NCBI RefSeq assembly: GCF_026571515.1
Contig: NW_026853774.1
Span: forward strand, 62,001-126,000
Source: Ruditapes philippinarum
Lineage: Eukaryota
DNA: 64,000 nt
Reading direction: 5' to 3'
Shown: positions 21,001 through 24,000 of the stretch, one piece after another
Position numbering within the stretch: position 1 is the stretch's first letter
Layout of the letters: each line of letters begins with the position of its first letter
Position numbers: made by a program

Positions 21001-24000
21001 GCTTTCAGTGTTAGTCATTATGTTATGTGTTTTGTAACCAAGTTATTGTCAGTAGTTTTAATGTTGTTTTACAATGATGATTGAAAAAAGACAGAGTTTC
21101 TAGTGAGAAAATTAAGATTGAAAGCACCCCTGTACCGGGCATATACGCCATATAATAATATGCGATCTTTGTTACATAAAAATGTACTGAACGTATATAC
21201 ATTAAACAGCATTTATCATGTCAATACTGTCCTTACGGTGAAACCTGTGTCGTTACTGATCATCTTCAAACACATACAAACTGTCAGTTTAAACCATGAT
21301 TCTATTTAGAATTTTGGTACAACAATGTTTTTTTACCTTTACATTGAAATCACCTATCAGCAGAATTTTTAATTTACATCGATTGATATATGTTTATTGT
21401 ATCAGTTACTTTAGTTTCTACAACAATTAAGACGATGATTTTCATATTATGAGGAAAGCATTTTTTAAAATAAAATTATTATGAAGATTCATTTGGCTTT
21501 TCAAAACCTTTGATTAATATGATTTTAAAAGTTTCTAAACCATAAGTTGTTACTATTATAAATCAAGACATTGGCTGAAAAGGGAAAAATTTTATTGTTA
21601 TGTATAGTTGATAAGAGAGCAGAAAAAGGATGTAAGTATTGTGATTGGTTGTGATGTTTATATAACAATCTTCATCATTGATTCATAGAATAAAAATGCT
21701 GTTTACTAAGTATCTATTTTTGTGTAGGGTACTGTATGTCTTAATATTTATACATTCTGTGTTCTGAGTGTTGTTTCATTTTTATGCCCCCTATTGTAAA
21801 ATTGACAATAATACTGTGATGGGGTGGTCATGCCATTAATATGTATATCATGTTATGCTTGTCAAATCAGTAACTTGAGAAAAAATTTATAAGCTGTAGT
21901 TTATATTACTTGAAAGATGCAATTAAATTAAATTTAAAAAAAGAAACCCTGTTCATCAGTTAAGTTAGTAGGTCAAGGTCACAGAGACATTGTAAAAATC
22001 TTTGTTTGATAATAACTTTAGAATTTATTATCCTAGGTGTGTTAATCTTAGTAGGGACATTGTCCATGACCAATAGATTACACCAGCTATTTTTGGTCAA
22101 AGGTCAAGGTTATAGTGACACTTTAGGTAAAGTCCTTGTGTGATCAATTAAATTAAAATTGTTAAGCATAAGTTTGTAAAACCTTGTTGTGACATTGTCC
22201 ATGGACAGTAGGTGATCCCTACTGATTTTGAGATCTTAGCATAGGTCAAGGTCACATTGAATCCTTGTCAAATGAACAACTTGTGAAAATATGAGAAAAT
22301 ATAAGCATGGGTTTTGTTAAACATTTAACTAATTGGAAGGGACATAGCCTATGGTCAGTAGATGACCCAAATTAGTTATTAGTTCAAAGTCATAGTTTAT
22401 AAGTTACACTTGGAATCCTTATCTTATCAATACATAGTCATAGATTTCATAAACTAATAAGTTAGTATTATAATACTCTTAGTATATAATATGACTTATA
22501 AATATTAGTATATAATATGACTTATAAATATAATTAATACTTTAAGCATTTTGGCATGATATTGAAATCTTTAGGTACAATACACATTATAAATTAAAAG
22601 CATGAAAAATAGACAGTTTTAGGAGAATTAACATTTAGCTTACAATAGATTATACTTAGTATATTTCACTTGTGAACACCAGCTAATGTGTTTTTACATC
22701 TGGTGTTCACTCTGCAAAATACATGTATATTTCAATTTTTCATGTTATACAAAGATTCTCTATAGATTATTAGGTGAAAGGGTTAGCATAGCTGTTTCAT
22801 AGTTACTAATTGGATTTGTTTTGTTTTATACATGTCATTGTTACTGTACAGGGCTCATAATGTGTTTTCTCTCCCTAGGGACATATAACAATGTTAAACT
22901 AATAGGTTTATAAAGTACGCTAATGAATTCCTAAGCAGACTGACGCATTTTCATACATATTCTTGAAAAATATGAACTCTTGTCATTTTATTTGATAAAG
23001 AGTGATTGGAATTCTTTTTATTTAGCATCCCATGTAGAATTGCCTTTGCCATACACTTTAATTACATAGTATGTGAGGTTTTTTTTTCAAAGATAACCAA
23101 TACATTATACTTTTTTACTGTTATTGTAGTGACATTGAAATTATTTTTGAAATTTATTTTTATTGAGTTTTTGATTTGTACCTTCAGATAAATGGAGTGC
23201 TTACATTATTTAGTTGTTGTTTTTTGTTACAAAAAGTAAATGTACACACCACTTTTTTCATGAATTTTAGGTATTGTTGGATAATTAACAAAAGAACAAG
23301 TTTAGTTTCTCTTTTTTAGCTCACCTGTCACAAAGTGACAGGGTGAGCTTTTGTGATTGCTTTTCGTCCGGCGTCCGTCCGTCCGTCCGTCGTCCGTCCG
23401 TCGTCCGTCCGTAAACTTTTGCTTTAAATGACATCTCCTCATAAACCACTGAGCCAATTTCATCCAAACTTCACAGGAATGTTCCTTTGGTGGTCACCTT
23501 TAAAAATTGTTCAAAGAATTTAATTCCATGCAAAACTCTGGTTGCCATGGCAACCGAAAGAAAAATCTTTAAATATCTTCTTTTAAACAACCCTAAGAGC
23601 TAGAGCTTAGATATTTGGCATGAAACATCTTCTAATGAGTGTCTACCAAGTTTGTTCAAATAAAAGCCCTGGGGTCAAAATTGGCCCCGCCCCCGGGGGG
23701 TCATTGATTTTCCCTATATGCATATAGTAAAAACTTAAAAGATCTTCTTTTAAAGAACTGTAAGAGCTAGAGCTAAGATTTTTGGCATGGAACATCTTCT
23801 AGTGAGTGTCTACCAAGTTTGTTCAAATAAAAGCCCTGGGGTCAAAATTGGCCCCGCCCGGGGGGTCATTGATTTTCCCTATATGCATATAGTAAACACT
23901 TAAAAAATCTTCCTTTAAAGAACTGTAAGAGCTAGAGCTTAGATATTTGGCATGAAACATCTTCTAGTGAATGTCTACCAAGTTTGTTCAAATAAAAGCC

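What the first reader, a model, noticed from the sequence alone, without database searches (positions are those of the whole stretch)
21587..21774. Unusually conserved intronic island holding two candidate microexons (24 nt and 6 nt)
Only 2 differences in ~188 nt against the paralog (~51394-51581), versus roughly 10-15% divergence around it. It contains tgtatag|TTGATAAGAGAGCAGAAAAAGGAT|gtaagt (21608-21631; LIREQKKD in phase 0, coiled-coil-like, perfect donor). A 96-nt spacer with an upstream TGC and a TACTAAG branch-like motif follows. Then comes tttttgtgtag|GGTACT|gtatgt (21728-21733; GT). Both are multiples of 3. Conserved flanks and upstream UGC are known hallmarks of SRRM3/4 (eMIC)-regulated microexons. 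They lie where the conserved exon is missing, suggesting a microexon cassette that tunes coil length. Gene conversion or a small ncRNA are alternatives.
Basis: partly seen in the sequence, partly recalled or inferred. Interest (0 to 1): 0.7.

Follow-up and report, generated by a model that had tools for sequence, protein, structure and literature searches.

The report
Real 24-nt clam microexon, conserved flank
The conserved island holds a genuine 24-base alternative microexon of a clam coiled-coil (CCDC158-like) gene together with its tightly conserved intron flank, an ordinary kind of splicing unit, while the proposed second 6-base exon has no support.

Summary
Window 21587-21774 differs at 2 of 188 positions from 51394-51581. 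It is the best of 7901 such windows in an 11.3-kb internal duplication whose introns differ by 10.8%.

The 24-nt candidate (21608-21631, LIREQKKD) is a real exon of a CCDC158-like gene.
- The same eight residues sit at the same exon junction in the Mercenaria protein P0001.
- Related eight-residue inserts occur in Mya P0005 and in the transcript-like P0042.
- Other models skip the insert.

A 45-nt cassette exon (27054-27098) follows it. Together they give 0, +8, +15 and +23 aa forms among heterodont clams.

The 6-nt candidate has weak splice-site scores. Eleven pairs at or above its scores, itself included, lie in 35.8 kb of introns, and no protein shows it.

The eMIC marks are absent upstream of the 24-nt exon. 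No RNA family or stable fold was found.

The 143-nt downstream block is most likely splicing-control sequence. A gene-conversion tract is not excluded, because the paralog is a decayed partial copy.

Exon E (53 aa) is absent from the whole window. The microexon follows E in relatives and does not replace it. This is a new member of a known kind.

The parts
18945..19123 (+). Upstream coding exon of the CCDC158-like gene (...DQIDTLLK), donor AAG|gtaatg
   Evidence: tblastn of P0001 residues 829-887, 93% identity; boundaries read
19124..21607 (+). Intron upstream of the microexon. The deeply conserved 53-aa exon E (EKGNLEND...SSLEK in Mercenaria) that relatives have here is absent.
   Evidence: tblastn of P0001 881-950 at E<=1000 finds no trace of E on either strand anywhere in the window. 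P0043-P0045 show E as one exon in other species.
21543..21607 (+). Upstream flank. A 34-nt identical block (21543-21576, possible branch-site region) is followed by a variable purine-rich spacer (4 differences at 21577-21586). Then comes the identical pyrimidine tract and 3' splice site ttttattgttatgtatag.
   Evidence: Alignment of the two copies; acceptor PWM score 6.2, mid-range for the gene
21608..21631 (+). 24-nt cassette microexon, phase 0, LIREQKKD
   Evidence: 8 of 8 residues identical to P0001 941-948 at the same junction. Mya P0005 has LIHERKKE and P0042 has LLRGQKRE. Donor GAT|gtaagt.
21632..21774 (+). 143-nt downstream intronic block with 2 differences from the paralog; proposed intronic splicing-control region
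   Evidence: No Rfam match, no unusual fold, no open frame.
21728..21733 (+). 6-nt candidate GGTACT between a 3'ss-like and a 5'ss-like site; not supported as an exon
   Evidence: Acceptor 5.1 and donor 4.2 bits, near the bottom of the gene's real sites. Eleven pairs at or above these scores, itself included, lie in 35757 intron nt. Absent from all aligned proteins.
27054..27098 (+). Second cassette exon, 45 nt, phase 0, YVAIESVLKKIGKDK
   Evidence: tblastn to P0001 949-963. Present in P0001 and Mactra P0002; skipped in P0003, P0004, P0005 and P0042. ccag|...AAG|gtaaat.
33331..33423 (+). Next exon (AVLRNATTQAQVEMFEQEM...), present in all relatives that cover the region
51394..51581 (+). Paralogous island in the decayed partial copy 2, with an identical copy of the microexon at 51415-51438
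55112..55156 (+). Copy-2 counterpart of the 45-nt exon: 45 of 45 identical, but the donor GT is changed to GG and the flanks are 57-73% identical

Best explanation
The island is a splicing unit of a clam CCDC158-like coiled-coil gene on the + strand. It holds a 24-nt, phase-0 cassette microexon (21608-21631, LIREQKKD) with its 3' splice-site region and a 143-nt downstream intronic block. The microexon is too short, and its introns too long (2.5 and 5.4 kb), to be recognised by ordinary exon definition. So the downstream block most likely serves as an intronic splicing-control region. It would bind factors that recruit or stabilise U1/U2 at the tiny exon, in the way described for alternative micro-exons and for the c-src N1 exon. 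Together with the 45-nt cassette exon at 27054-27098, the microexon yields forms of the rod with 0, +8, +15 or +23 residues between exon E and the AALRNATTQ exon. Each cassette adds whole heptads plus one residue, so inclusion should shift the coiled-coil register. The island is near-identical in the paralog because the partial copy was under purifying selection for much of its history. Shown here: the exon is real and lies at an alternatively used junction, and the island is far more conserved than neutral sequence. Inferred: the flank acts in splicing, and the cassettes affect the coil.
For: Host gene: ORFs at 8778, 15273 and 17109 hit Pfam PF15921 (CCDC158) colinearly, the best at 41.7 bits against a cut-off of 27. 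The best relative is Mercenaria P0001, 90% identical over exon 17109-17825. Exon reality: LIREQKKD equals P0001 941-948. Mya P0005 (LIHERKKE) and P0004 come from the same 93-Mb contig and differ there by exactly 8 residues. P0042 is 508 aa from a 1605-nt contig. It is colinear with P0001 741-1338 across many exon junctions, hence from spliced RNA, and carries LLRGQKRE with the 45-nt exon skipped. All four cassette combinations occur among the 6 heterodont proteins. Mytilus californianus isoforms with and without an insert at the same junction show alternative use in a pteriomorph. Exon lengths of 24 and 45 nt keep phase 0. Conservation: 2/164 non-coding differences against 10.8% in introns and pS 0.104 in exons. 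The differences are patterned: the branch-site region and the pyrimidine tract are conserved and the spacer between them varies. Copy 2 was constrained: pN/pS is 0.20 over 1008 nt. There are 17 non-synonymous against 22 synonymous differences, fewer than expected if copy 2 had always been neutral (binomial p 0.0006-0.004). The 45-nt exon is 45/45 identical while its flanks are 57-73% identical, which argues for selection rather than conversion at that exon. A third partial copy is annotated as an intact 389-aa protein in Ruditapes philippinarum (P0046). Literature: flanks of symmetric alternative micro-exons are conserved for more than 75 bp and hold enhancers (PMC4317164, passages). The c-src N1 exon has a downstream control sequence (PMC1500816, passage). 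Crude a/d scoring: the skip forms P0003 and P0004 keep one heptad register across the junction, while +8 and +15 shift it by 1 and +23 by 2.
Against: No RNA data exist for this species, so inclusion, skipping and tissue pattern here are unknown. Conservation is measured only against a paralog in the same genome. That paralog is now a pseudogene: two in-frame stops, a broken exon end, a lost donor, a missing exon and truncation. Its conservation therefore cannot be present-day selection. To explain 2/188 by selection, essentially every one of the 164 non-coding positions must have been constrained. That is stricter than the exons' non-synonymous sites (pN 0.021), and a conversion tract explains it as simply. 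No known enhancer motif stands out. There is no GCAUG, no UCUC, and 3 YCAY against 2.2 expected. The gene lacks exon E in this window, so its own integrity is uncertain. The heptad analysis is crude and partly arithmetic.
Confidence: 0.6

Rival explanations
1. Gene-conversion tract. The microexon is real, but the near-identity of the about 190-230 nt around it comes from a recent non-allelic conversion between copy 1 and copy 2, not from any function of the intronic flank.
For: Copy 2 is a decayed partial copy, so identity there needs no function. The downstream boundary is sharp: from 21774 onward differences return at about 10%. 2/188 is lower than even non-synonymous sites (pN 0.021). The tract length is within the usual range for conversion (general knowledge, not tested).
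Against: There is no sign of conversion elsewhere. Exon pS (0.104) equals intron divergence (0.108). The other fully identical exon (45 nt) has strongly diverged flanks. The tract would have to fall by chance on the one microexon. It is the only such window among 7901. The upstream differences sit in the spacer between two functional-looking elements.
Confidence: 0.25
2. Two-microexon cassette. GGTACT (21728-21733) is a second, 6-nt exon joined to the first through a 96-nt mini-intron, adding Gly-Thr. This is not exclusive of the best explanation.
For: A 3'ss-like site has TACTAAG 17 nt upstream of its AG and a U-rich tract, and GTATGT lies 6 nt later. All of it sits inside the conserved block and is in frame. 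By my arithmetic, the chance of such a pair in a given 143 nt is about 4% (11 pairs, itself included, in 35757 nt). A 6-nt exon in a conserved region is a published precedent in a human CACNA1 gene (PMC4317164, figure legend).
Against: None of the proteins covering the junction has two extra residues after the 8-aa insert. P0001 reads ...KKD|YVAL, P0005 ...KKE|ATL and P0042 ...KRE|AVV. Splice-site scores are near the bottom of the gene's real sites. A 96-nt intron would be far shorter than any of the gene's 25 introns, whose minimum is 247 nt by my subtraction of the exon coordinates. The other isoforms of the Mercenaria cluster could not be listed.
Confidence: 0.1
3. eMIC (Srrm234)-dependent neural microexon. 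The island is the cis-code of the bilaterian neural microexon programme.
For: Short symmetric exon with conserved flanks. The eMIC programme is described as ancestral to bilaterians (PMC8797185, abstract and section 10).
Against: The cis marks listed in PMC8797185 section 10 are not met for the 24-nt exon. There is no UGC within 40 nt of the 3'ss, the AG-exclusion zone is 25 nt (gene range 15-92), and there are no UCUC and no CUAAY. The 3'ss is not especially weak, at 6.2 bits, mid-range. Tissue pattern is unknown.
Confidence: 0.1
4. An intronic non-coding RNA (snoRNA or miRNA) or another non-splicing element, such as an enhancer, accounts for the conserved block.
For: Intronic location, about 140-nt size, and loose box-like strings (GTGATGT near 21650, CTGA at about 21765) read by eye.
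Against: 0 Rfam matches at gathering score in the whole window. No match inside 21587-21774 even at E<=10. MFE z-scores are +0.34 on the + strand and -0.13 on the - strand, with 122 and 82 of 200 shuffles folding at least as well. No terminal stem is apparent.
Confidence: 0.04

Closest known systems
Mercenaria mercenaria 'trichohyalin-like isoform X4' (P0001; a CCDC158-family protein), segment ...SSLEK|LIREQKKD|YVALERVLKKVGKDK|AALRN...
   Same: Identical 8-residue insert at the same exon junction, followed by the same 15-residue cassette (12 of 15 identical). Neighbouring exons are 70-97% identical.
   Different: The Mercenaria protein contains the 53-aa exon E just before the microexon, and the window has no E. 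Only the protein was available, so the Mercenaria intron could not be compared.
Alternative symmetric micro-exons of vertebrates with conserved intronic flanks (Li et al. 2015, PMC4317164; passages read)
   Same: Length divisible by three, ordinary rather than strong splice sites, long flanking introns, and conservation extending more than 75 nt into the flank.
   Different: The RBFOX motif TGCATG or GCATG that marks the vertebrate downstream flanks is absent. Conservation here is between paralogs, not species. The animal is a mollusc and the tissue pattern is unknown.
c-src N1 exon (18 nt) with its downstream control sequence (as summarised in PMC1500816, passage read; further detail recalled)
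   Same: A tiny cassette exon that depends on an intronic element within roughly 150 nt downstream of its 5' splice site. The architecture matches 21608-21774.
   Different: No sequence similarity, none of the known motifs tested is present, and the function of the clam block is untested.
eMIC/Srrm234-dependent microexons (Torres-Mendez et al. 2022, PMC8797185; section 10 read)
   Same: Short exon with conserved flanks.
   Different: UGC near the 3'ss, a long AG-exclusion zone, UCUC tracts and a CUAAY branch site are all absent upstream of the 24-nt exon.

Membership tests
Alternative cassette microexon (symmetric) | Very short internal exon (3-27 nt, or <=51 nt in the wider sense) bounded by AG and GT | tested here: met
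   24 nt, tatag|...|gtaagt
Alternative cassette microexon (symmetric) | Keeps the reading frame (length divisible by 3, same phase on both sides) | tested here: met
   Phase 0 in and out. Exon lengths sum in frame to the stop at 41029 (lengths only, exons not joined).
Alternative cassette microexon (symmetric) | Present in mature mRNA or protein | tested here: met
   Met in relatives only: P0001 (8 of 8 identical), P0005, and the transcript-like P0042. RNA of this species was not available.
Alternative cassette microexon (symmetric) | Both inclusion and skipping occur | tested here: inconclusive
   Mya P0005 and P0004 differ by the 8 residues but come from different annotations. Mytilus californianus RefSeq isoforms differ at the same junction. 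There are no junction reads for this species.
Alternative cassette microexon (symmetric) | Intronic flanks conserved between species | not testable with these tools
   No mollusc genome collection was on hand. Only paralog conservation was shown (2/164).
eMIC (SRRM3/4, Srrm234)-dependent microexon | UGC motif close to the 3' splice site | tested here: not met
   0 TGC in the 40 nt upstream of 21608. The only TGC in the island (21697) lies upstream of the 6-nt candidate. 8 of 25 ordinary acceptors have one.
eMIC (SRRM3/4, Srrm234)-dependent microexon | Long AG-exclusion zone, UCUC-rich pyrimidine tract, strong CUAAY branch site, very weak 3'ss | tested here: not met
   AG-exclusion zone 25 nt (gene range 15-92). 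No TCTC, CTCT or CTAAY in 21500-21800. Acceptor score is mid-range.
eMIC (SRRM3/4, Srrm234)-dependent microexon | Neural-specific inclusion that depends on the eMIC domain | not testable with these tools
   No expression data
RBFOX-enhanced micro-exon | (U)GCAUG in the downstream flank | tested here: not met
   No TGCATG or GCATG in 21500-21800
Intronic small RNA (snoRNA/miRNA) | Match to a curated family, or a fold more stable than shuffles | tested here: not met
Non-allelic gene-conversion tract | A run of near-identity with sharp edges between otherwise diverged paralogs, regardless of function | tested here: inconclusive
   The run and its sharp 3' edge are present. There is no conversion signal elsewhere, since pS is about equal to intron divergence. 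No outgroup DNA was available.
CCDC158 protein family (host gene) | Pfam PF15921 match above the gathering score, colinear along the gene | tested here: met
   41.7 bits against a cut-off of 27 for exon 17109-17825. Weaker colinear hits come from exons at 8778 and 15273. All full-length relatives carry PF15921.

The most novel reading that the evidence does not exclude
The whole 188-nt island is a compound splicing device in which the conserved 3'ss-like/5'ss-like pair at 21704-21739 is functional. It would act either as a true 6-nt second microexon reached through a 96-nt mini-intron, or as a decoy exon that recruits U2 and U1 next to the 24-nt exon so that it can be defined across two multi-kilobase introns. 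On this reading the device is constrained at every nucleotide, even in a partial gene copy. This would be a mechanism for microexon recognition in a lophotrochozoan that differs from the eMIC and RBFOX codes.
Probability: 0.12. Interest if true: 0.5.

Novelty: new member of a known kind. Interest (0 to 1): 0.3.

Why it matters
The result shows that a reader with sequence alone can pick out a real 24-nt exon that several annotation pipelines leave out. The Mactra, Dreissena and one Mya model lack it. It also marks one exon junction of the poorly understood CCDC158 family as a site of alternative cassette use across bivalves. The biology itself, a small in-frame exon with a conserved intronic flank, is ordinary. 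The practical value is for clam genome annotation, and as a candidate for studying microexon recognition outside vertebrates and insects, where the eMIC and RBFOX marks are not evident. The missing exon E and the array of partial 3' gene copies bear on the quality of the gene model.

Tried and rejected
1. ncRNA reading. Rfam at gathering score over the whole window gave 0 hits. At E<=10 over 21400-22000 there were 6 weak chance-level hits, none inside the island. Folds of both strands were no better than shuffles. Rejected.
2. Dispersed repeat or TE origin. The island has only its two copies in the window. Rejected.
3. Coding extension of the microexon. Reading through the donor meets a stop after 25 codons, and no frame of either strand is open. 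Rejected.
4. Known enhancer motifs (GCAUG, UCUC, CUAAY, YCAY clusters). None is enriched. There are 3 YCAY against 2.2 expected, and 21 comparable 3-YCAY clusters lie in the gene's introns.
5. Search for exon E with a permissive tblastn (E<=1000, word size 2) found nothing.
6. The listing of cluster members, to see the other 7 Mercenaria isoforms and so test the 6-nt exon, was switched off. A 'shorter' protein search brought no isoform with two extra residues. It did bring genomic ORFs of exon E and a third partial copy, P0046.
7. A protein search on P0001 residues 860-1000 added no new species.
8. Paper searches for microexons in bivalves or molluscs and for CCDC158 (listing only) found nothing on this exon.
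9. A first Pfam call failed on a badly chosen frame and was re-sent without it. A script assertion was corrected.

Not done:
Exons were searched singly and only their lengths and per-exon counts were summed.
- No structure or complex prediction was run.
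Full report
**What the window is.** The + strand carries a long coiled-coil gene.
- Single stop-to-stop ORFs at 8778, 15273 and 17109 hit Pfam PF15921 (CCDC158) colinearly. The largest scores 41.7 bits against a cut-off of 27.
- That exon alone (17109-17825) finds full-length CCDC158-like proteins of many bivalves. The best is Mercenaria mercenaria 'trichohyalin-like isoform X4' (P0001, 1343 aa, 90% identity).
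- tblastn of P0001 maps about 26 exons from 1307 to the stop at 41029.
- A 389-aa Ruditapes philippinarum protein (P0046) is 88-100% identical to the 3' exons. The animal is therefore a venerid clam close to Ruditapes.
- I searched exons one at a time and did not assemble or search a joined model. Only exon lengths and per-exon counts were summed.

**The duplication.** Self-comparison shows a partial tandem copy of the 3' part of the gene. Copy 1 is 20088-40654 and copy 2 is 49517-62415, with 22 colinear blocks, 11283 aligned columns and 84.2% identity counting gaps.

Copy 2 is decayed:
- two in-frame stops in the exon at 59205-59483
- a rearranged, stop-containing end of the exon starting at 58607, with loss of its donor
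- GT changed to GG at the donor of the 45-nt exon
- no counterpart of exon 38201-38323
- truncation inside the penultimate exon at 62415

Copy 2 has nevertheless not always been neutral.
- Over 1008 exonic nt, pS is 0.104 (equal to the intron divergence of 10.8%), pN is 0.021 and the ratio is 0.20.
- There are 17 non-synonymous against 22 synonymous differences. That is fewer than expected had copy 2 drifted freely from the start (binomial p 0.0006-0.004).
- Reading the alignments with P0046 and P0001 as references, most amino-acid changes lie on the copy-2 side.

**The observation.** It holds exactly.
- 21587-21774 against 51394-51581 has 2 mismatches in 188 ungapped columns. It is the best of 7901 windows, whose median is 32 mismatches. 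The next four windows (5-7 mismatches) all contain coding exons.
- The non-coding part has 2/164 differences. At the intronic rate P(<=2/188) is 1.25e-7, about 1e-3 after allowing for all positions. None of 2000 shuffles reached it.
- Other exons' flanks do not behave like this, apart from a shorter stretch after 37000.

**The 24-nt exon is real.**
- Its translation LIREQKKD is residues 941-948 of P0001, between ...NKLESSLEK and YVALERVLKKVGKDK|AALRNATTQ.
- The window encodes the following cassette at 27054-27098 (YVAIESVLKKIGKDK, ccag|...|gtaaat). The exon after that starts at 33331.
- All three junctions are phase 0.
- Among the six heterodont proteins in hand, all four combinations occur: both cassettes (P0001, +23 aa), only the 45-nt one (Mactra P0002, +15), only the 8-residue one (Mya P0005 LIHERKKE and P0042 LLRGQKRE, +8), and neither (Dreissena P0003, Mya P0004).
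- P0042 is 508 aa from a 1605-nt contig and is colinear with P0001 741-1338. It must therefore derive from spliced RNA, which gives transcript-level support in another species.
- Pteriomorph bivalves carry other in-frame inserts of 18-26 residues at the same junction. Mytilus californianus RefSeq isoforms exist with and without the insert.
- This junction is thus a long-standing site of cassette-exon use in bivalve CCDC158-like genes.

**The 6-nt candidate is not supported.**
- With position matrices built from the gene's own 25 donors and 25 acceptors, its acceptor scores 5.1 bits (20 of 25 real sites are higher) and its donor 4.2 bits (23 of 25 are higher).
- Eleven site pairs 3-30 nt apart score at or above it in 35757 nt of this gene's introns, the candidate itself included.
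- No protein shows two extra residues after the 8-residue insert.
- A 96-nt intron would be much shorter than the gene's shortest intron, 247 nt by my subtraction of the coordinates.
- It cannot be excluded, because the other isoforms of the Mercenaria cluster could not be listed and no RNA data were available.

**eMIC and other codes.** The cis marks given for eMIC-dependent exons are UGC near the 3'ss, a long AG-exclusion zone, UCUC tracts, a CUAAY branch site and a very weak 3'ss (PMC8797185, section 10 read). None is present upstream of the 24-nt exon. The RBFOX motif that marks the downstream flanks of vertebrate alternative micro-exons (PMC4317164, passages) is also absent. YCAY is not enriched.

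**What the flank is.**
- An RNA gene is unlikely. There is no Rfam match and no fold better than shuffles.
- It is not a dispersed repeat and has no open frame.
- Two explanations remain. The first is a splicing-control flank. This fits the published pattern for symmetric alternative micro-exons (conserved flanks extending more than 75 bp) and the c-src N1 downstream control sequence. It also fits the long introns on both sides and the patterned upstream differences.
- By my arithmetic from the values, complete constraint until copy 2 decayed would leave about 2 differences, which is what is seen.
- The second is a recent gene-conversion tract of about 200 nt. The sharp 3' edge and the stricter-than-protein conservation fit this equally well.
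- Against conversion: pS equals intron divergence, so conversion has not been general. The other perfectly conserved small exon has strongly diverged flanks.
- I put the splicing-control reading at about 0.6 and conversion at about 0.25. Only orthologous intron sequence can decide, and none was within reach.

**Likely effect on the protein (inference).** The cassettes add 8, 15 or 23 residues, that is whole heptads plus 1, 1 or 2. A crude a/d hydrophobicity score shows one continuous register across the junction in the skip forms and the expected shifts in the others. Inclusion would therefore introduce a local register break in the rod.

**The missing exon.** Exon E is P0001 residues 888-940. 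It is highly conserved from bivalves to a brachiopod and is a single exon ending ...SSLEK|gt in other species (P0043-P0045). It is absent from the entire window on both strands. Its 159 nt would be in frame, so the gene may still be read through. I cannot tell whether this is a true loss or an assembly fault. The microexon does not replace E, since relatives have both.

**Verdict.** The finding is a real but ordinary alternative microexon with a conserved flank. The exon is already present in RefSeq models of related clams, and no paper describing it turned up in my searches.

Noticed in passing
window 19124-21607 (and the whole window): The 53-aa exon E of CCDC158-like genes (EKGNLEND...SSLEK in Mercenaria) is conserved across bivalves but missing from the gene here. 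Its loss would be in frame (159 nt). I could not tell whether it is a real deletion or an assembly fault.
   Followed up: partly
window 49517-62415 versus 20088-40654: Copy 2 is a partial tandem copy of the gene's 3' part and is now a pseudogene (two stops, a broken exon end, a lost donor, a missing exon, truncation). Yet pN/pS against copy 1 is 0.20, so it was probably functional for a time.
   Followed up: yes
window 47315-48924 and 62412-64000: A 1.6-kb direct repeat at 95.5% identity, younger than the main duplication. The second copy begins exactly where copy 2 breaks off inside an exon. This suggests that the unit (repeat + copy 2) is itself tandemly repeated and that a further partial copy lies beyond the window.
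   Followed up: no
protein P0046 (Ruditapes philippinarum LOC132725016, 389 aa); matches window 33331-40695 at 88-100%: A third partial copy of the gene's 3' part, not in this window, is annotated as an intact protein with its own short first exon. Partial copies of this gene may be expressed.
   Followed up: partly
window 27054-27098 / 55112-55156: The 45-nt cassette exon is 45/45 identical between the copies while its flanks are only 57-73% identical. In copy 2 its donor GT has become GG, with a GT 6 nt further on.
   Followed up: partly
window 37001-37100 / 60417-60516: The 100 nt after the donor at 37000 have only 3 differences between the copies, and the frame stays open to 37053. This could be an alternative donor (for example at 37014) or another conserved flank.
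   Followed up: no
window 23562-24987 and 30523-32113: Two arrays of the same 166-nt satellite (8.6 and 9.6 copies) lie in the two introns on either side of the 45-nt exon. They are absent from copy 2 and inflate these introns to 5.4 and 6.2 kb.
   Followed up: no
window 6756-8078; 34921-36003; 60737-61209: Other intronic tandem arrays: a 27-nt minisatellite (48 copies), a 144-nt satellite (7.5 copies), and a 37-nt array (12.8 copies, 98% matches) found only in copy 2.
   Followed up: no
window 2388-2446 and 2886-3022: Two neighbouring exons both align to the same stretch of P0001 (residues 63-79 and 70-112). They may be duplicated or alternative exons. My boundaries there are approximate.
   Followed up: no
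window 50892-51256: A 366-nt insertion just upstream of the island in copy 2 only. It is related (77%) to 5495-5764 and is probably a repeat element.
   Followed up: no
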